NCBI RefSeq assembly: GCF_030013595.1
Contig: NZ_CP122768.1
DNA: 64,000 nt
From: Escherichia coli
GTDB taxonomy: Bacteria > Pseudomonadota > Gammaproteobacteria > Enterobacterales > Enterobacteriaceae
Direction: 5' to 3' (one strand)
The notes under the pieces are model-generated. The model saw nothing but the letters and a program-made list of their open reading frames with translations. It was not told where the DNA came from and made no database searches. Every line of letters begins with the position of its first letter. Positions within the stretch are counted from its first letter, which is position 1. The translations under genes and the position numbers were made by a program. This document shows, piece after piece, positions 1 through 15,556 of the stretch.

Positions 1-424
1 ATCACTCTCCGGTGCCGGAGGGTGGCTTGGTACGGTCGGCGGATGGATTTCGGGGGCAGTGGCAAACGCAAAAGGTGGTGTTTACACATCGGCAAATCTG
101 AGTGCTTACAGTAACACTATTGTGGATACACCGACGTATTTTGCTTTTGCGAAAGGTGCCGGGCTGATGGGTGAGGCCGGGCCTGAAGCAATCATGCCAC
201 TGACACGGGCAGCGGACGGCTCTCTTGGGGTCAGGGCCATTGGAAATGTGAATGGTGGCGGTGGATTTGTTTATTCTCCCGTGTATCACATCAGCATTCA
301 GAATCAAGGGAGCAATGGCGAGATAGATGCGCGCTCAGCCAGGGGACTGGTGGATCTGATCGACAGCAGGGTTGTGTCAATTATGCAGTCATCGCGTCGG
401 GATGGAGGATTGTACAGTGCCTGA
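1..424 (+). CDS. H: Tail tape measure protein, C-terminal fragment (lambda H-like); 5' end outside window
   Basis: Open frame runs from window edge (frame of pos 2) to TGA at 422-424; position immediately upstream of M/L/K/I/J as in lambda. Confidence 0.6.
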   Translation, partial: SLSGAGGWLGTVGGWISGAVANAKGGVYTSANLSAYSNTIVDTPTYFAFAKGAGLMGEAGPEAIMPLTRAADGSLGVRAIGNVNGGGGFVYSPVYHISIQNQGSNGEIDARSARGLVDLIDSRVVSIMQSSRRDGGLYSA

Positions 425-758
425 GCCTGAAGTTTTTAACTGGATCCCCCGTGAGGGGATGGAGACGACACGAAAGCCATCAGTTATTACGGTAAAGTTT
501 GGTGACGGATATGAACAGCGACGGGCTGGTGGCCTGAATGCGGATCTGAAAACGTTTAAACCGGTATTTCGTGTCACAGATGAATATTCCCGTGCCGCGC
601 TGGACAGTTTTTTATCCCGTCATGCCGGGATTCGTGCTTTTTTGTGGCGTCCGCCAAAACACAACAGGACTGTCCGGGTTGTCTGCAGGGAGTGGAGCAT
701 TTCGGATAATGCCATGTATACCGATTTTAACTGTACCTTTGAAGAGGTCACTCACTGA
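417..758 (+). CDS. M: Minor tail protein M
   Basis: Translation contains the FGDGYxQR...GLNAxLKT...FLWxPP pattern of lambda M; GTG at 417 preceded by GGAGGA (404-409) at ideal spacing, so likely start rather than ORF-track start 372. Confidence 0.7.
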   Translation: MPEPEVFNWIPREGMETTRKPSVITVKFGDGYEQRRAGGLNADLKTFKPVFRVTDEYSRAALDSFLSRHAGIRAFLWRPPKHNRTVRVVCREWSISDNAMYTDFNCTFEEVTH

Positions 759-1456
759 TGCAGGGTATACAGCAGGAAACACTCAATGAGTGCACTAAAA
801 CGGAGCAATCCGCGCTGGTCGTGCTCTGGGAAATTGATCTGACAGAGGTCGGCGGAGAACGTTATTTCTTCTGTAATGAGCAGAACGAAAAAGGTGAACC
901 AGTCACCTGGCAGGGGCGGCAGTATCAGGCTTATCCCATTCAGGGAAGCGGATTTGAGATGAACGGCAAAGGAGCCAGTGCAAGGCCAACGCTTAAAGTC
1001 TCTAATCTGTACGGCATGGTCACCGGGATGGCGGAAGATTTGCAGAGTCTGGTCGGCGGAACGGTGGTCCGGCGTAAGGTTTACGCCCGTTTTCTGGATG
1101 CGGTGAACTTCGTCAACGGAAACAGCGAAGCCGATCCGGAGCAGGAGATTATCAGCCGCTGGCGCATCGAGCAGTGTAGCAATTTAACAGCGGTAAGTGC
1201 CTCCTTTGTACTGTCCACGCCGACGGAAACGGATGGCGCTGTTTTTCCGGGACGTATCATGCTGGCCAACACCTGCACCTGGACCTATCGCGGTGATGAG
1301 TGCGGTTATCACGGTCCGGCGGTCGCGGATGAATATGACCAGCCGACGTCCGATATCACGAAGGATAAATGCAGCAAATGCCTGAGCGGTTGTAAGTTCC
1401 GCAATAACGTCGGCAACTTTGGTGGCTTCCTTTCCATTAACAAACTTTCGCAGTAA
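758..1456 (+). CDS. L: Minor tail protein L
   Basis: 232 aa, near-identical in length and sequence to lambda L as recalled (MQ..QETLNEC...CSKCLSGCKFRNNVGNFGGFLSINKLSQ); start overlaps M stop (TGATG). Confidence 0.9.
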   Translation: MQGIQQETLNECTKTEQSALVVLWEIDLTEVGGERYFFCNEQNEKGEPVTWQGRQYQAYPIQGSGFEMNGKGASARPTLKVSNLYGMVTGMAEDLQSLVGGTVVRRKVYARFLDAVNFVNGNSEADPEQEIISRWRIEQCSNLTAVSASFVLSTPTETDGAVFPGRIMLANTCTWTYRGDECGYHGPAVADEYDQPTSDITKDKCSKCLSGCKFRNNVGNFGGFLSINKLSQ

Positions 1457-1461
1457 ATCCC

Positions 1462-2205
1462 ATGACACAGACAGAATCAGCGATTCTGGCGCACGCCCGG
1501 CGATGTGCGCCAGCGGAGTCGTGCGGCTTCGTGGTAAGCACGCCGGAGGGGGAAAGATATTTCCCCTGCGTGAATATCTCCGGTGAGCCGGAGGCGTATT
1601 TCCGTATGTCGCCGGAAGACTGGCTGCAGGCAGAAATGCAGGGTGAGATTGTGGCGCTGGTCCACAGCCACCCCGGTGGTCTGCCCTGGCTGAGTGAGGC
1701 CGACCGGCGGCTGCAGGTGCAGAGTGATTTGCCGTGGTGGCTGGTTTGCCGGGGGGCGATTCACAAGTTCCGCTGTGTGCCACATCTTTCCGGGCGGCGC
1801 TTTGAGCACGGGGTGACGGACTGTTACACGCTGTTCCGGGATGCTTACCATCTGGCGGGGATTGAGATGCCGGATTTTCATCGCGAGGATGACTGGTGGC
1901 GTCACGGTCAGAATCTCTATCTGGATAATCTGGAGGCCACAGGGCTGTATCAGGTGCCGTTGTCAGCGGCGCAGCCGGGCGATGTGCTGCTGTGCTGTTT
2001 TGGTTCATCGGTGCCGAATCATGCCGCCATTTACTGTGGTGACAGCGAGCTGCTGCACCATATTCCTGAACAACTGAGCAAACGAGAGAGGTACACCGAC
2101 AAATGGCAGCGACGCACACACTCCCTCTGGCGTCACCGGGCATGGCACGCATCTGCCTTTACGGGGATTTGCAACGATTTGGCCGCCGCATCGACCTTCG
2201 AGTGA
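1462..2205 (+). CDS. K: Tail tip assembly protein K (JAMM/MPN plus NlpC/P60 domains)
   Basis: Lambda K-like sequence; JAMM motif HSHPGGLPWLSEAD (HxHx7Sx2D) and NlpC/P60-type Cys (GVTDCYTLF) and His (NHAAIY) visible; 3' end overlaps I. Confidence 0.85.
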   Translation: MTQTESAILAHARRCAPAESCGFVVSTPEGERYFPCVNISGEPEAYFRMSPEDWLQAEMQGEIVALVHSHPGGLPWLSEADRRLQVQSDLPWWLVCRGAIHKFRCVPHLSGRRFEHGVTDCYTLFRDAYHLAGIEMPDFHREDDWWRHGQNLYLDNLEATGLYQVPLSAAQPGDVLLCCFGSSVPNHAAIYCGDSELLHHIPEQLSKRERYTDKWQRRTHSLWRHRAWHASAFTGICNDLAAASTFE

Positions 2206-2750
2206 AAACGGGGTCCGAAGCCATCCGGGCGCTGGCCATGCAGAACCCGGCGTTTCGTCAGAAACTGAGCGACGGCTGGTACCAGGTACGCATTGCCGGG
2301 CGTGATGCAGGTGAAACCGAATTGTCTGCCCGTCTTAATGAGCCGCTGGCAAATGGTGCCGTGATCCACATCGTGCCGCGTCTGGCGGGAGCTAAAAGTG
2401 GCGGTGTTTTTCAGGCAGTGCTGGGTGCGGCGCTGATTGCGGTGGCATGGTGGAACCCTGTGGGCTGGCTGGGTGCCGCGGCTGTATCGGGCATGTATGC
2501 GGCAGGGGCCAGTATGATCCTGGGCGGTGTTGCACAGATGCTGGCCCCTAAACCCAAAACTCCCCGCACACAGACAACGGATAACGGCAAACAGAACACC
2601 TATTTTTCTTCACTGGATAATATGGTTGCCCAGGGCAATGTTCTGCCCGTTCTGTACGGTGAAATGCGCGTGGGATCACGTGTGGTATCTCAGGAGATCA
2701 GCACAGCAGATGAAGGTGATGGTGGTCAGGTTGTGGTGATTGGTCGCTGA
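2103..2750 (+). CDS. I: Tail assembly protein I
   Basis: N-terminus MAATHTLPLASPGMARICLYGDLQRFGRRIDLRVKTG and C-terminus ...VVSQEISTADEGDGGQVVVIGR match lambda I as recalled; overlaps K 3' end. Confidence 0.85.
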   Translation: MAATHTLPLASPGMARICLYGDLQRFGRRIDLRVKTGSEAIRALAMQNPAFRQKLSDGWYQVRIAGRDAGETELSARLNEPLANGAVIHIVPRLAGAKSGGVFQAVLGAALIAVAWWNPVGWLGAAAVSGMYAAGASMILGGVAQMLAPKPKTPRTQTTDNGKQNTYFSSLDNMVAQGNVLPVLYGEMRVGSRVVSQEISTADEGDGGQVVVIGR

Positions 2751-2807: not shown

Positions 2808-6209
<3,402 letters not shown>

Positions 6210-6929: not shown

Positions 6930-6939
6930 TGGGGTGAAT

Positions 6940-9900
6940 ATGGCAGTAAAGATTTCAGGTGTACTGAAAGACGGCACAGGAAAACCGGTACAGAACTGCA
7001 CAATCCAGCTGAAAGCAAAACGTAACAGCACCACGGTGGTGGTGAACACGCTGGCCTCAGAAAATCCGGATGAAGCCGGGCGTTACAGCATGGACGTTGA
7101 GTACGGTCAGTACAGCGTTATTCTGTTGGTGGAAGGATTCCCGCCGTCACATGCCGGGACCATCACCGTGTATGAAGATTCCCGACCCGGTACGCTGAAT
7201 GATTTTCTCGGTGCCATGACGGAGGATGATGCCCGTCCGGAGGCACTGCGCCGTTTTGAACTGATGGTGGAAGAGGTGGCGCGTAACGCGTCCGCGGTGG
7301 CACAGAACACGGCAGCCGCGAAGAAGTCAGCCAGCGATGCCGGCACATCAGCCCGTGAGGCGGCAACCCATGCGACTGATGCTGCAGGCTCAGCACGCGC
7401 AGCCAGCACGTCAGCCGGACAGGCCGCGTCGTCGGCTCAGTCAGCGTCTTCCAGCGCAGGAACGGCATCAACAAAGGCCACTGAAGCGGAAAAAAGTGCT
7501 GCCGCTGCAGAGTCCTCAAAAAGCGCGGCGGCCACCAGTGCCGGTGCGGCGAAAACGTCAGAAACGAATGCCGCAGCGTCACAACAATCAGCAGCCACTT
7601 CTGCATCCACCGCGACTACGAAAGCGTCAGAAGCTGCCACCTCAGCCCGGGATGCGGCGGCCTCAAAAGAGGCAGCGAAATCATCAGAAACGAACGCATC
7701 CTCGAGCGCCAGTAGCGCAGCTTCCTCGGCAACGGCGGCAGGAAATTCCGCGAAGGCGGCAAAAACGTCAGAGACGAACGCCAGGTCTTCTGAAACGGCA
7801 GCGGGACAGAGCGCCTCGGCTGCGGCAGGCTCAAAAACAGCGGCTGCATCATCTGCCAGTGCAGCGTCAACAAGTGCCGGGCAGGCCTCAGCCAGTGCCA
7901 CCGCCGCCGGAAAATCGGCAGAAAGCGCCGCATCGTCTGCTTCAACAGCCACAACGAAGGCTGGCGAAGCCACTGAACAGGCCAGCGCAGCAGCGAGGTC
8001 TGCTTCCGCAGCGAAGACATCCGAAACGAACGCGAAAGCGTCGGAAACCAGCGCAGAATCCTCAAAAACGGCAGCCGCATCGTCCGCCAGTTCGGCAGTG
8101 TCATCGGCATCATCTGCGTCTGCTTCAAAAGATGAGGCGACCAGACAGGCGTCAGCAGCGAAGGGCAGCGCCACGACGGCATCCACGAAGGCGACAGAGG
8201 CAGCTGGCAGTGCGAGGGCAGCAGCTCAGAGCAAAAGTACGGCGGAATCTGCAGCAACGCGCGCTGAGACAGCGGCAAAACGGGCAGAGGATATTGCATC
8301 CGCCGTGGCGCTTGAGGATGCGAGCACGACGAAAAAGGGGATAGTACAGCTCAGCAGTGCGACCAACAGTACGTCTGAAACGCTGGCGGCAACGCCAAAG
8401 GCAGTAAAATCAGCCTATGACAATGCAGAGAAACGTCTGCAGAAAGACCAGAACGGCGCTGATATACCCGATAAGGGACGCTTCCTGAACAACATTAACG
8501 CGGTCAGTAAAACAGACTTTGCTGATAAGCGTGGTATGCGTTATGTGCGGGTTAACGCTCCTGCAGGTGCAACATCTGGAAAATATTACCCTGTTGTTGT
8601 TATGCGTTCTGCTGGCTCAGTAAGCGAACTGGCATCAAGGGTCATTATCACCACGGCAACGCGAACCGCAGGCGATCCGATGAATAACTGCGAGTTTAAC
8701 GGGTTTGTTATGCCTGGTGGCTGGACTGACAGGGGGCGTTATGCTTATGGAATGTTCTGGCAATATCAAAACAATGAACGAGCCATCCACTCAATAATGA
8801 TGAGTAATAAGGGCGATGATTTGCGCTCTGTGTTCTATGTTGATGGTGCTGCTTTCCCTGTTTTTGCGTTTATTGAAGATGGCCTGTCAATATCCGCACC
8901 TGGTGCTGATCTCGTTGTTAATGATACGACCTATAAGTTTGGGGCAACAAATCCAGCGACGGAATGTATCGCGGCGGACGTTATCCTTGATTTTAAGAGT
9001 GGCCGTGGTTTTTATGAGTCCCATTCGTTAATCGTTAACGATAACTTGTCGTGCAAAAAACTTTTTGCCACAGACGAAATTGTAGCGCGTGGTGGTAATC
9101 AGATTCGAATGATAGGTGGGGAGTATGGTGCATTATGGCGTAATGATGGCGCTAAAACTTACCTGCTGCTTACCAATCAAGGTGATGTTTATGGTGGCTG
9201 GAATACATTAAGACCGTTTGCTATTGATAACGCAACCGGCGAACTGGTTATTGGAACCAAACTGTCCGCAAGTCTGAACGGTAATGCATTAACAGCAACA
9301 AAGCTGCAAACGCCAAGACTGGTTTCTGGGGTTGAGTTTGATGGTTCCAGAGATATTACTTTAACCGCTGCGCATGTTGCTGCTTTTGCCAGAAGAGCAA
9401 CGGATACGTATGCCGATGCGGATGGGGGCGTTCCCTGGAATGCCGAATCAGGCGCTTACAATGTCACCCGCTCTGGCAACAGCTATATTCTGGTTAACTT
9501 CTATACCGGAGTCGGAAGTTGCCGGACATTGCAGATGAAGGCGCATTACAGAAATGGAGGTCTGTTCTACCGTTCCTCAAGAGATGGCTATGGTTTTGAG
9601 GAAGACTGGGCAGAAGTTTATACCTCGAAAAATCTTCCACCAGAAAGCTACCCAGTCGGCGCACCAATCCCGTGGCCATCAGATACCGTTCCGTCTGGTT
9701 ATGCCCTGATGCAGGGGCAGACTTTTGACAAATCTGCTTACCCGAAACTTGCAGCCGCTTATCCGTCAGGCGTGATCCCTGATATGCGTGGCTGGACGAT
9801 TAAGGGCAAACCTGCCAGTGGTCGGGCCGTATTGTCTCAGGAACAGGACGGCATTAAATCGCACACCCACAGCGCCAGCGTATCCAGTACGGATTTGGGG

Positions 9901-10293
9901 ACGAAAACCACATCGTCGTTTGATTACGGCACTAAATCCACGAATAACACCGGGGCGCATACGCACAGTGTGAGCGGTACAGCCGCAAGTGCCGGAAACC
10001 ATACTCATAGTGTCACAGGCGCATCAGCAGTCAGCCAGTGGTCACAAAATGGGTCAGTACATAAGGTAGTGTCTGCGGCCAGTGTGAATACAAGTGCTGC
10101 AGGAGCACACACTCATAGTGTCAGCGGCACAGCTGCATCTGCAGGTGCTCACGCACATACTGTCGGTATTGGTGCTCATACGCACTCTGTTGCGATTGGC
10201 TCACATGGACACACTATCACCGTTAACGCTGCTGGTAACGCGGAAAACACCGTCAAAAACATCGCATTTAACTACATTGTGAGGCTTGCATAA
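6940..10293 (+). CDS. stf: Side tail fibre protein (Stf family), ~1117 aa
   Basis: N-terminus [24 protein letters not shown] and C-terminus ...[31 protein letters not shown] match lambda Stf as recalled; ATG at 6940 rather than ORF-track GTG at 6934; contains A/S/T-rich repeat block and HxH repeats. Confidence 0.85.
7261..8341 (+). repeat. Degenerate tandem coding repeat (Ala/Ser/Thr-rich, recurring AAKTSETNA / SAAxSASxATTKAxEA units) inside stf
   Basis: Motif KTSETNA or KSSETNA recurs at least four times in the translated ORF; low-complexity A/S/T composition over ~360 aa. Confidence 0.6.
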
Positions 10294-10877
10294 TGGCATT
10301 CAGAATGAGTGAACAACCACGGACCATAAAAATTTATAATCTGCTGGCCGGAACTAATGAATTTATTGGTGAAGGTGATGCATATATTCCGCCTCATACA
10401 GGTCTGCCAGCAAACAGTACCGATATTGCACCGCCAGATATTCCGGCTGACTTTGTGGCTGTTTTCAACAGTGATGAGGCATCGTGGCATCTCGTTGAAG
10501 ACCATCGGGGTAAAACAGTTTATGACGTGGCATCAGGGGACGCGTTATTTATTTCTGAACTCGGTCCGTTACCGGAAAATGTTACCTGGTTATCGCCGGA
10601 AGGGGAATATCAGAAGTGGAACGGCACAGCCTGGGTGAAAGATGCAGAAGCAGAAAAACTATTCCGGATCCGGGAAGCGGAAGAAACAAAAAACAGCTTG
10701 ATGCAGGTAGCCAGTGAGCATATAGCGCCGCTTCAGGATGCTGTAGATCTGGAGATCGCAACGGAGGAAGAAAACTCGTTGCTGGAAGCCTGGAAGAAGT
10801 ATCGGGTGTTGCTGAACCGTGTTGATACATCAACTGCACCTGATATTGAGTGGCCGGAAGAACCAGACACAATGTAA
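10293..10877 (+). CDS. tfa: Tail fibre assembly protein Tfa
   Basis: 194 aa; [44 protein letters not shown]... matches lambda Tfa as recalled; start overlaps stf stop. Confidence 0.9.
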
Positions 10878-11395: not shown

Positions 11396-11758
11396 TGGTG
11401 GAGCTGGCGGGAGTTGAACCCGCGTCCGAAATTCCTACGTCCTCGGTACTACATGCTTAGTCAGTCTTTACATTCGCTTGCCAGCTGCGGACGGACACGC
11501 CACTAACAAACTAGCCTGATTAAGTTTTAACGCTTCAACCCCAGGCAGGGCTTCCACGCGATCTCTTTTGGGTTTGACCTCTCTTGATCCCCGTCCTAAG
11601 AGCGGAGGCTAGGGAGAGAGGGCTCTAAGCAGGTTATTAAGCTGCTAAAGCGTAGTTTTCGTCGTTTGCGACTATTTTTTGCGGCTTTTTACGAGGCCAA
11701 CCGCCCCTCGGCATGCACCTTGGGTTTCGCAAATCCCGTCGAATCCAGAATCAGCCCC
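11396..11758 (-). ncRNA. ssrA: tmRNA (SsrA, transfer-messenger RNA), 363 nt
   Basis: Reverse complement reads GGGGCTGATTCTGGATTCGACGGGATTTGCGAAACCCAAGGTGCATGCC...GGTTCAACTCCCGCCAGCTCCACCA, i.e. full-length E. coli tmRNA including encoded CCA. Confidence 0.95.
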
Positions 11759-13894: not shown

Positions 13895-15556
13895 TTACGC
13901 CGCAAGTAGTTCTTTCGCATTCGCCAGTGTGTTACGTGTGACTTCACTGCCACCAAGCAGGCGCGCCAGCTCTTGTAACCGCGCTTTTTTATCCAGGGAT
14001 TGCATATGCGTTTCTGTCATCGCACCATCGGTTTCTTTGCTGACAAAATAGTGTTGATGACCACATCCCGCGACTTGTGGCAGGTGGGTAACACACATCA
14101 CCTGAGTTGATTCGCCAAGTTGACGCAGCAGTTTGCCGACAACTGCCGCTGTTGGACCGCTAATCCCTACATCCACTTCATCAAAAATCAGTGCCGGGGT
14201 TTCCATTTTACGCGCCGTGATGACCTGAATTGCCAATGCGATGCGGGACAATTCACCACCGGATGCAACTTTGGCAATAGGCTGCATTGGCTGACCTGGG
14301 TTGGTGGTTACCCGAAACTCAATACGATCAGCGCCGTCAGCGCCCAGGTGATGCTCGTCAAATTTAATATCGATCGTAAACTGCCCATGTGGCATAGAGA
14401 GCGCATGCATACTTTTGGTGATCAGCTGTGCCAACTCATTTGCATAATGCTGGCGTTGCAGGTGTAATGCGTGCGCGGTTTCCAGTGCCTGCTGATGATG
14501 TTTCGTTACCGCCAGCGCGAGCGTTTCTTGTGAGTCGGCCTGATCGTCCAGTTGCTGCTGTTCTTCCAGTAGCGACTGGTAATACTGTGGCAATGCCTCA
14601 GGGCTGACGTGATGTTTACGTGCCAGCGAAATCTGTTTTGAGATGCGCTGTTCAAGTTCAAACAGTCGGTTGGGATCGAGATCCAGACGATCGCAGTAGT
14701 GGCGCAGTTCATCGCTGGCTTCAGTAATCTGGATGGTAGCTTCTTCCAGCATATCAAGTACGCCGGACAGTTTGCTGTCCATGCCAATCAATTCGCTCAC
14801 CAGTTGTTTAGCCGTGTAAAGCTGACTTTGCAGGTTTGCGTCTTCACCGTCGGCCATTACTGCCAATGCATTCTGGCTGGTAGTCAGCAATTGACCGCTG
14901 TTCGCCAGACGTTTGTACTCTTCGTCGATTTGCTCAAACTCTCCGGGCTGCGGATTAAATTCGTTAAGTTCTTTTAATTGGTATTGCAGCAGTTCTGCAC
15001 GGGCGGCGCGTTCCTGACTTAACTGTTGATGATGCGCGAGGTCACGGCAGCTTTGATGCCACAACTGATAACGTGCGGTCATTTCCTGGAGTAGAGAGGT
15101 TTCATTGGCATAGCCATCAAGCAGGAATTTTTGGTGCTCGGGTTTGGTGAGTAACTGATGAGCGTGCTGACCATGGATCTGAATCAGCAACTGACCCAGT
15201 TCGCGCAGTTGTGAAAGAGGAACCGCTGTACCGTTGATAAAACCACGGGAGCGACCATCGCTGCTGATTACGCGACGAAGCAAACATTCATGCCCGTCTT
15301 CAAGCTGGTTTTCTTCCAGCCAGCGCAGGGCCGCTGGCGTATCTTTCAGAGAAAAACGGGCGCACAGGTCGGCACGAGCAGCGCCGGTACGCACCATGTC
15401 GGCTTCAGCGCGACCACCGAGACAAAGGCCGAGGGCATCTATTGCAATAGATTTACCCGCGCCGGTCTCGCCAGTTATTACGGTCATGCCGCTATGAAAA
15501 TCAATCTCAAGCTCACGAACGATAGCAAAGTTGCTGATGGTCAGTTGTGCCAACAT
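13895..15556 (-). CDS. recN: DNA repair protein RecN
   Basis: 553 aa, N-terminal Walker A (GETGAGKS), SMC-like coiled coil, matches recalled RecN. Confidence 0.95.

What the first reader, a model, noticed from the sequence alone, without database searches (positions are those of the whole stretch)
1462..2205. Tail protein K: full-length frame carries an intact JAMM metalloprotease motif and NlpC/P60 catalytic residues
The frame from ATG 1462 gives 247 aa with a complete HxHx7Sx2D motif (HSHPGGLPWLSEAD) and, downstream, an NlpC/P60-type Cys (GVTDCYTLF) and His (NHAAIY). The motif-associated Glu (…APAESCGF…) lies upstream of the internal Met (codon 49) used in older lambda K annotations, so the longer start is more plausible. 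The last ~100 nt overlap gene I in another frame.
Basis: partly seen in the sequence, partly recalled or inferred. Interest (0 to 1): 0.2.

Follow-up and report, generated by a model that had tools for sequence, protein, structure and literature searches.

The report
Full-length lambda-type tail assembly protease K
This is the ordinary, intact gene K of a lambda-like prophage, a two-domain assembly protease (a JAB/JAMM domain plus an NlpC/P60 domain) that is already described; the short 199-residue version in the lambda reference comes from one base missing from that reference sequence.

Summary
Window 1462..2205 (+) is a 247-codon ORF. It carries E19, the motif H68-S-H70-x7-S78-x2-D81, and the NlpC/P60 residues C121, H187 and H199. 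Pfam finds Prok-JAB (51.9 bits) and NLPC_P60 (47.6 bits). An AlphaFold model (pLDDT 97) matches JAMM deubiquitinases and MepS-type peptidases.

The long start is also supported:
- Codons 1-48 are under the same purifying selection as the rest of the gene (pN/pS 0.23).
- ATG-1 follows the L stop by 4-15 nt in most related loci.
- Codon 49 is ATG in only 94 of 173 distinct relatives, and is mostly Ile in distant homologues.
- E19 is essentially invariant.

The reference (J02459/NC_001416) lacks one G (window G1596; after lambda 14266), and this breaks the long frame. Other lambda, DE3 and 434 records have the G and an open 247-codon frame.

Gene I starts at ATG 2103, so the 103-nt overlap is real.

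None of this is new. [quoted passage not shown] A 2025 conference talk reports that gpK cleaves that domain off gpI. Interest is low.

The parts
1462..2205 (+). Gene K, 247 codons plus TGA; tail tip assembly protein K (JAB + NlpC/P60)
   Evidence: ORF list. Pfam. phrog_30 'minor tail protein', E 1e-162. 8 of 247 residues differ from the lambda PV340536 K.
1454..1464 (+). L stop TAA (1454-1456), 5-nt spacer, K start ATG (1462-1464). No Shine-Dalgarno motif is visible, so translational coupling to L is likely.
   Evidence: Sequence. An ATG 4-15 nt after the L stop is seen in 214 of the 228 related loci where an L stop was located, in several relative frames.
1468..1755 (+). JAB/JAMM (MPN+) metalloprotease domain, residues 3-98
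   Evidence: Pfam PF14464, 51.9 bits. PDB 2kks aligns to residues 7-105. Foldseek finds PfJAMM1 5ld9 at TMt 0.67-0.69, plus AMSH, CSN5 and Rpn11.
1516..1518 (+). Codon for the catalytic Glu, E19, in the P-x-E-x-C-G motif
   Evidence: E in 72 of 73 aligned distant homologues and in 173 of 173 close relatives.
1663..1704 (+). Zinc-site motif H68-S-H70-x7-S78-x2-D81
   Evidence: H68, H70 and D81 are invariant in 73 of 73; S78 is S or T.
1590..1608 (+). Internal SD-like GGAGG (1590-1594) and ATG codon 49 (1606-1608), the start used in the lambda reference. G1596 is the base missing from J02459/NC_001416.
   Evidence: Alignments. Codon 49 is ATG in 94 of 173 relatives, Ile in 76 and Leu in 3.
1792..2133 (+). 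NlpC/P60 (C40) papain-like peptidase domain, residues 111-224, with triad C121 (1822-1824), H187 (2020-2022), H199 (2056-2058)
   Evidence: Pfam PF00877, 47.6 bits. C121, H187 and H199 are each 72 of 73. Foldseek finds MepS 8xup, Acd33800 9ubf and 4hpe.
2143..2202 (+). K C-terminal tail, residues 228-247, specific to the lambda clade and weakly constrained in the K frame
   Evidence: Most distant homologues end about 5 residues after R224. pN/pS in the K frame is 9.8 in close relatives and 0.62 in the wider set.
2103..2750 (+). Gene I (215 aa). It has a variable 13-residue leader and a ubiquitin-like domain at residues 14-97, followed by Gly-Gly at 100-101, hydrophobic helices and a C-terminal plug domain.
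   Evidence: Pfam PF06805 at residues 14-97. ATG 2103 is present in 182 of 182 distinct loci, while the M14 codon is CTG in 72. GG position.
2086..2091 (+). GAGAGG Shine-Dalgarno-like motif, 11 nt upstream of the I start and inside K codons R-E-R
   Evidence: Conserved as GAGAGG or GAGGGG in the related loci. The equivalent site is annotated as an RBS in phage 434 and lambda imm21.

Best explanation
Window 1462..2205 is the intact gene K of a lambda-like prophage. It is translated from ATG 1462, probably by coupling to termination of gene L 5 nt upstream, and gives a 247-residue non-structural tail-tip assembly enzyme. Its N-terminal JAB/JAMM domain is a zinc metalloprotease (E19, H68, H70, S78, D81). 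That domain recognises the ubiquitin-like domain at the N-terminus of gpI, the product of the next gene, and cuts it off at the conserved glycines that end the domain (around G96 to G101). The membrane-active and plug part of gpI is then left in the tail tip, and gpK leaves. The C-terminal NlpC/P60 domain (C121, H187, H199) is a second, apparently active, cysteine peptidase with no known substrate. What is shown here: the ORF, the domains, the conservation of catalytic residues, the start codon and the gene order. What comes from the literature: cleavage of gpI by gpK. What is inferred: translational coupling, the exact cleavage site, and any role for the NlpC/P60 domain.
For: Domains: Pfam finds Prok-JAB and NLPC_P60 above their cut-offs. 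The AlphaFold2 model has pLDDT 97.1 and pTM 0.91. Its Foldseek matches are PfJAMM1, AMSH, CSN5, Rpn11, MepS and Acd33800.

Catalytic residues: all are conserved in 72 homologues of 34-59% identity and in 173 closer coding sequences.

Start codon:
- pN/pS for codons 1-48 is 0.24 (above 2 in the other two frames) and 0.23 in the wider set, against 0.18-0.20 for the rest of the gene.
- Codon 1 is ATG in 171 of 173 relatives, and codon 49 is ATG in only 94 of 173.
- Position 49 is Ile, Leu or Val in 61 of 73 distant homologues.
- Distant homologues begin 10-34 residues before the Glu.
- The truncated 199-aa form drops Prok-JAB to 22.9 bits, below the cut-off of 25.

Context: the gene order is L-K-I-J.

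Literature:
- TAPK as JAB+NlpC/P60 next to a Ubl-bearing TAPI, with predicted cleavage at the Ubl C-terminal Gly (PMC1779556).
- A conference report that gpK cleaves the Ubl from gpI after gpI joins the tip complex (PMC12908700).
- gpK was absent from virions by mass spectrometry (PMC10721106).
- Virion gpI is resolved only from residue 101 (PMC11101478) or 135. Residue 101 is just past the GG at positions 100-101.
Against: No protein-level evidence for the N-terminus was available here. ATG 1462 has no recognisable Shine-Dalgarno sequence, whereas the internal ATG 1606 has GGAGG 11 nt upstream, so a minor internal-start product cannot be excluded in this subgroup. The gpK-gpI cleavage is known to me only from a meeting summary, not from a paper with data. 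The unresolved N-terminus of gpI in cryo-EM maps could reflect disorder rather than cleavage. Nothing here tests the NlpC/P60 domain's substrate.
Confidence: 0.9

Rival explanations
1. K is the 199-residue protein that starts at the internal Met49 (ATG 1606), as in the lambda reference annotation, and the upstream 144 nt are untranslated spacer.
For: GGAGG lies 11 nt upstream of ATG 1606. Lambda J02459/NC_001416, DE3 and lambda imm21 annotate 199 aa. Database clusters of 199 aa with thousands of members exist.
Against: The long frame is open in every record checked except the lambda reference and two records identical to it. That includes records where 199 aa was called: DE3, lambda imm21, and loci L009 and L010. 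Codons 1-48 show purifying selection only in the K frame. Codon 49 is not ATG in 79 of 173 relatives. The essentially invariant catalytic Glu and two beta-strands of the JAB fold lie upstream of Met49. The GGAGG is simply the codons for Pro-Glu-Ala/Glu.
Confidence: 0.03
2. Both products are made: full-length gpK, plus an internal-start 199-aa form carrying only the NlpC/P60 activity, with separate roles.
For: The internal SD-like motif plus ATG is present in this window and in about half of the close relatives.
Against: The internal ATG is absent in 46% of close relatives and in most distant ones, so any such isoform is not a conserved feature. There are no data for two products.
Confidence: 0.07
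3. The domains are catalytically dead scaffolds (pseudo-enzymes), or the NlpC/P60 domain is a virion-borne cell-wall hydrolase used during infection.
For: The annotation names suggest cell-wall activity: 'C40 family peptidase' and 'cell wall-associated NlpC family hydrolase', and a weak match to TIGR02219 'putative phage cell wall peptidase'.
Against: Every catalytic residue of both domains is conserved at 94% or more across homologues of 34-59% identity, which argues against dead domains. gpK was not found in lambda virions by mass spectrometry or cryo-EM, which argues against a role at infection. The TIGR02219 score (23.9 bits) is far below its cut-off of 81.9.
Confidence: 0.05

Closest known systems
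Bacteriophage lambda gpK (tail tip assembly protein K; TAPK of Iyer, Burroughs and Aravind 2006)
   Same: Same gene in the same L-K-I-J order. 239 of 247 residues are identical to the K frame of resequenced lambda. It has the same two domains and the same 103-nt overlap with I.
   Different: Eight substitutions, five of them outside the conserved cores and four in the unconstrained C-terminal tail. The reference lambda entry (199 aa) differs only because of the missing G after position 14266.
JAMM/MPN+ deubiquitinases and desampylases (Rpn11, CSN5, AMSH, PfJAMM1/HvJAMM1; Pfam Prok-JAB)
   Same: The complete E...HxHx7Sx2D motif and the MPN fold (TMt 0.67-0.69 to PfJAMM1), and a partner protein with a ubiquitin-like beta-grasp domain ending in Gly.
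   Different: A minimal prokaryotic JAB of about 100 residues, fused to a papain-like domain. Its presumed substrate is a linear Ubl-protein fusion (gpI), not an isopeptide conjugate. There is no E1/E2 partner in the locus. The NCBIfam desampylase model scores far below its cut-off (29 against 130 bits).
NlpC/P60 (C40) peptidases such as E. coli MepS/Spr
   Same: A Cys-His-His triad with the same 12-residue His-His spacing (MepS residue numbers are from my own knowledge), the Pfam match, and Foldseek matches to MepS.
   Different: No signal peptide, and cytoplasmic action during tail assembly. The substrate is probably a protein rather than peptidoglycan, and is unknown.

Membership tests
JAMM/MPN+ metalloprotease (Pfam PF14464 Prok-JAB) | Profile HMM match above the curated cut-off | tested here: met
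   51.9 bits against a cut-off of 25, residues 3-98. The 199-aa truncation scores only 22.9 bits.
JAMM/MPN+ metalloprotease (Pfam PF14464 Prok-JAB) | Complete catalytic and zinc motif: upstream Glu plus H-x-H-x7-S-x2-D | tested here: met
   E19, H68, H70, S78 and D81 are present and conserved in homologues.
JAMM/MPN+ metalloprotease (Pfam PF14464 Prok-JAB) | MPN fold | tested here: met
   AlphaFold2 model with pLDDT 97. Foldseek finds PfJAMM1 5ld9 at rmsd 2.5-2.7 and TMt 0.67-0.69, plus AMSH, CSN5 and Rpn11.
JAMM/MPN+ metalloprotease (Pfam PF14464 Prok-JAB) | Zinc binding and peptidase activity on a Ubl C-terminus | not testable with these tools
   Only a meeting report states that gpK cleaves the Ubl of gpI (PMC12908700).
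NlpC/P60 (C40) cysteine peptidase (Pfam PF00877) | Profile HMM match above the curated cut-off | tested here: met
   47.6 bits against a cut-off of 23, residues 111-224.
NlpC/P60 (C40) cysteine peptidase (Pfam PF00877) | Catalytic Cys and His plus a third polar residue | tested here: met
   C121, H187 and H199 are each conserved in 72 of 73 homologues, and 173, 173 and 172 of 173 in close relatives.
NlpC/P60 (C40) cysteine peptidase (Pfam PF00877) | Papain-like fold | tested here: met
   Foldseek matches to MepS 8xup, Acd33800 9ubf, 7v6s and 4hpe.
NlpC/P60 (C40) cysteine peptidase (Pfam PF00877) | Hydrolytic activity and an identified substrate | not testable with these tools
   No experimental data were found.
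Lambda gpK / TAPK tail tip assembly protein | Position between minor tail protein L and the Ubl-bearing tail assembly protein I, upstream of J | tested here: met
   L 758..1456 (PF05100), I 2103..2750 (PF06805), J 2811..6209. The same order is seen in lambda, phage 434 and E. coli ETEC1732.
Lambda gpK / TAPK tail tip assembly protein | Close sequence similarity to lambda K | tested here: met
   239 of 247 residues identical to lambda PV340536 K. phrog_30, E 1e-162.
Lambda gpK / TAPK tail tip assembly protein | Required for tail assembly but absent from the virion | not testable with these tools
   Literature for lambda only: scored essential; not detected in virions.

The most novel reading that the evidence does not exclude
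The NlpC/P60 half of gpK, whose catalytic triad is as conserved as the JAB site, may be a second dedicated assembly protease with a protein substrate. One candidate is the still unassigned cut that turns the tape measure gpH into gpH*; another is a second cut in gpI. On this reading it is not a cell-wall hydrolase, and the conserved 103-nt K/I overlap would tie production of the enzyme to production of its substrate.
Probability: 0.15. Interest if true: 0.45.

Novelty: already known. Interest (0 to 1): 0.1.

Why it matters
It matters mainly for annotation. The lambda reference entry, and annotations copied from it, show a 199-residue K that hides the JAB domain. One structural review, for example, analysed the 199-aa form and reported only the peptidase domain (PMC7291167). 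Recognising the 247-residue form restores the catalytic Glu and explains the enzyme-substrate pairing with gpI. Biologically, the gene is a textbook example of a phage using a ubiquitin-like domain and a JAMM protease as an assembly checkpoint, but that idea is already published and is being worked out experimentally by others.

Tried and rejected
1. I suspected that the abundant 199-aa database clusters came from real lambda DNA carrying the frameshift. Fetching two of them (L009, L010) showed an open 247-codon frame. These are gene-caller choices of the internal SD+ATG, not frameshifts.

2. I tested whether gene I starts at M14 (ATG 2142) or at the GTG at 2202 used by PGAP and other annotations. 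Both were rejected. The M14 codon is CTG in 72 distinct loci, and GTG 2202 is GTA in 6 of 76, whereas ATG 2103 is universal.

3. I looked by eye for a programmed -1 frameshift site that would fuse K to I in the overlap and found no canonical slippery heptamer. The K-I fusion proteins in the database are singletons and were not pursued.

4. Literature searches for the 14266 insertion and for a full paper on gpK cleavage of gpI found nothing beyond the meeting report. Two ids recalled from memory for the Casjens and Hendrix lambda review and the lambda ribosome-profiling paper (PMC4424060, PMC3718152) returned nothing held.

5. I did not model a K-I complex, because the structure tool returns no coordinates or contact information.

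Full report
**The observation**

Window 1462..2205 on the + strand is an ORF of 247 codons that ends in TGA.
- E19 within APAESCGF (nt 1516-1518).
- H68-S-H70-PGGLPWL-S78-EA-D81 (nt 1663-1704).
- C121 within GVTDCYTLF (nt 1822-1824).
- H187 within NHAAIY (nt 2020-2022).
- The only early internal Met, at codon 49 (ATG 1606-1608).

The regex H.H.{7}S..D is expected about 0.003 times in a protein of this composition. More to the point, Pfam finds Prok-JAB (residues 3-98, E 8e-14, 51.9 bits, cut-off 25) and NLPC_P60 (residues 111-224, E 2e-12, 47.6 bits, cut-off 23).

An AlphaFold2 model built on 72 distant homologues has mean pLDDT 97.1 and pTM 0.91. Its best PDB matches by Foldseek fall into two groups. 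The first is JAMM/MPN+ enzymes: PfJAMM1 5ld9 at TMt 0.67-0.69 and rmsd 2.5-2.7, plus AMSH, CSN5 and Rpn11. The second is NlpC/P60 peptidases: MepS, C. difficile Acd33800 and 4hpe.

**Context**

The gene sits in a lambda-type tail cluster:
- L at 758..1456 (PF05100).
- K at 1462..2205.
- I at 2103..2750 (PF06805).
- J at 2811..6209, followed by lom, stf and tfa.

A tmRNA gene lies at 11396..11758, so this is a lambdoid prophage beside ssrA in an Escherichia chromosome. The best complete-genome matches are about 96% identical. K differs from the K frame of resequenced lambda at 8 of 247 residues.

**Why lambda K was annotated as 199 residues**

J02459 and NC_001416 annotate K at 14276..14875, which leaves 148 nt between L and K. 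When I tried to translate the equivalent long frame in the reference, it contained a stop. The alignment shows that the reference reads GGAGGC-TATTTCC where this window and phage 434 read GGAGGCGTATTTCC. The missing base is window G1596, after lambda position 14266 and 10 nt upstream of the internal ATG. In the reference, the ATG after L therefore opens only a 76-codon frame.

Of 221 phage records matching this stretch, only four share the shorter version. Two are the reference entries. The third is an UNVERIFIED engineered-strain record. The fourth is a near-reference 'isolate' from chicken swabs. Every other lambda or lambda-hybrid record spans one extra base, and the records read directly have an open 247-codon frame:
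- LC730321, whose total length is 48,503 bp, one more than the reference.
- PV340536 and KT232076.
- Lambda imm21, imm434 and h434.
- DE3, HK629 and HK630.

From my own memory, not from a tool, resequencing pipelines routinely report '+G at 14,266, intergenic L/K' as a fixed difference from NC_001416. The simplest reading is an error in the 1982 sequence. A mutation private to the sequenced stock cannot be formally excluded here.

**Start codon**

The first line of evidence is selection. In 76 distinct close relatives, codons 1-48 have pN/pS 0.24 in the K frame, against 2.5 and 2.6 in the other two frames. In 173 distinct coding sequences of 71-100% identity, codons 1-48 have pN/pS 0.23, against 0.18-0.20 for codons 49-227.

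The second is conservation of the start codons. Codon 1 is ATG in 171 of 173. Codon 49 is ATG in 94, Ile in 76 and Leu in 3. Among 72 homologues of 34-59% identity, position 49 is Ile in 47, Leu in 10, Met in 9 and Val in 4 of the 73 aligned sequences.

The third is the junction with L. In 214 of the 228 loci where the L stop was located, an ATG lies 4-15 nt after it. The spacings of 4, 5, 6, 9 and 10 nt put L and K in different relative frames, so K is neither a read-through nor a fusion of L.

The fourth is the position of the N-terminus in distant homologues. They start 10-34 residues before the catalytic Glu, and phmmer alignments begin at query residues 4-10.

The fifth is domain integrity. 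E19 is E in 72 of 73, and the N-terminal helix and two strands belong to the confidently modelled MPN fold. The 199-residue form scores only 22.9 bits against Prok-JAB, below the cut-off. This explains why the lambda entry is named only 'C40 family peptidase', and why a structural review that used the 199-aa sequence saw only the peptidase domain (PMC7291167).

ATG 1462 has no visible Shine-Dalgarno motif and sits 5 nt after the L stop, so translational coupling is the likely initiation mode; this is an inference. The GGAGG before Met49 is made of the codons for Pro-Glu-Ala. It probably explains why gene callers, and annotators working from the lambda entry, still choose 199 aa even where the long frame is open. 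A minor internal-start product in this subgroup cannot be excluded.

**Catalytic residues across the family**

Counts in the 73-sequence alignment of distant homologues:

| Residue | Conservation |
|---|---|
| P17 | 69 of 73 |
| E19 | 72 of 73 |
| C21 | 68 of 73 |
| G22 | 73 of 73 |
| H68, H70, D81 | 73 of 73 each |
| S78 | S 69, T 4 |
| D120 | 73 of 73 |
| C121, H187, H199 | 72 of 73 each |

The 12-residue H187-H199 spacing equals that of the MepS triad (MepS numbering is from my own knowledge). Both active sites therefore look functional.

**How it works**

Iyer, Burroughs and Aravind (2006) made the following points (PMC1779556):
- They described TAPK as JAB plus NlpC/P60.
- They showed that TAPI has an N-terminal ThiS/MoaD-like ubiquitin-fold domain ending in a conserved Gly.
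- They noted the K-I-J neighbourhood.
- They predicted that the JAB domain releases the Ubl by cutting at that Gly.

[quoted passage not shown] Independent structural work fits this. gpK is absent from virions by mass spectrometry and cryo-EM. Virion gpI is resolved only from residue 101 or 135. In this window the Ubl domain spans I residues 14-97 and is followed by ...PRLAG96-AKS-G100-G101.

I therefore take the JAB-Ubl cleavage as the mechanism. The exact scissile bond is undetermined. The substrate of the NlpC/P60 domain is unknown. A cell-wall role at infection is unlikely because gpK is not carried in the particle.

**The overlap with gene I**

ATG 2103 is present in all 182 distinct related loci. 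The codon for I residue 14 (ATG here) is CTG in 72 of them. The GTG at 2202, which PGAP and some phage records use as the I start, is GTA in 6 of 76, and starting there would remove the first strand of the Ubl.

Selection switches frame inside the overlap:
- Over 2103-2141 the K frame is constrained (pN/pS 0.19) and the 13-residue I leader is not (2.7).
- From 2142 onward, among close relatives, variation is synonymous for I (0.025) and non-synonymous for K (9.8).

Most distant K homologues end about 5 residues after R224, so the last 20 or so residues of K are an extension specific to the lambda clade.

**Verdict**

This analysis adds two things. It identifies the reason for the short lambda annotation, a single base missing from the reference. 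It also gives comparative evidence that fixes the starts of both K and I.

Noticed in passing
window 1596 (equivalent to lambda NC_001416 after position 14266; locus L004 around 1267): The lambda reference sequence lacks one G present in this window, in phage 434 and in nearly all other lambda-derived records. This breaks the 247-codon K frame and produced the 199-aa annotation, which has been copied into DE3 and lambda imm21 even though their long frame is open.
   Followed up: yes
window 2103..2205 and 2202: Annotations disagree on the start of gene I: ATG at the 2103 equivalent in lambda and 434, and GTG at the 2202 equivalent in PGAP, PV340536 and KT232076. Comparative data favour ATG 2103. 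The GTG start would truncate the ubiquitin-like domain, and the M14 codon is CTG in 72 related loci.
   Followed up: yes
window 2143..2202: The last 20 or so residues of K are a lambda-clade extension that most distant homologues lack and that is weakly constrained in the K frame. AlphaFold still models them as a confident helix (residues 230-243). No function is evident.
   Followed up: partly
window 2400..2405 (gpI G100-G101): The Gly-Gly just after the Ubl domain of gpI coincides with the first residue (101) resolved for gpI in a published closed-state lambda tail structure. This is consistent with cleavage there, but disorder is not excluded.
   Followed up: partly
proteins P0015, P0030, P0081, P0115, P0118: Singleton database proteins combine Prok-JAB, NLPC_P60 and Lambda_tail_I in one chain (apparent K-I fusions), and others fuse L to K. 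They are probably frameshift errors or pseudogenes in prophages. The 2006 paper also mentions one E. coli prophage with TAPI fused to the JAB.
   Followed up: no
window 11396..11758 (- strand): A tmRNA gene (ssrA, tag ANDENYALAA) lies about 500 nt beyond the tail fibre assembly gene, so the prophage's right end abuts ssrA. The same arrangement is seen in E. coli ETEC1732, where smpB follows.
   Followed up: partly
window 6934..10293 and 10293..10877: An intact 1119-residue side tail fibre gene (GTG start) with a long Ala/Ser/Thr-rich repetitive N-terminal half, followed by a 194-residue tail fibre assembly gene. In laboratory lambda, by contrast, stf is frameshifted.
   Followed up: no
window 402..758 and 758..1456: Gene junctions in the tail cluster are tight: the M stop overlaps the L start at 758, and the L stop lies 5 nt before the K start. 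This is consistent with translational coupling along the operon.
   Followed up: no
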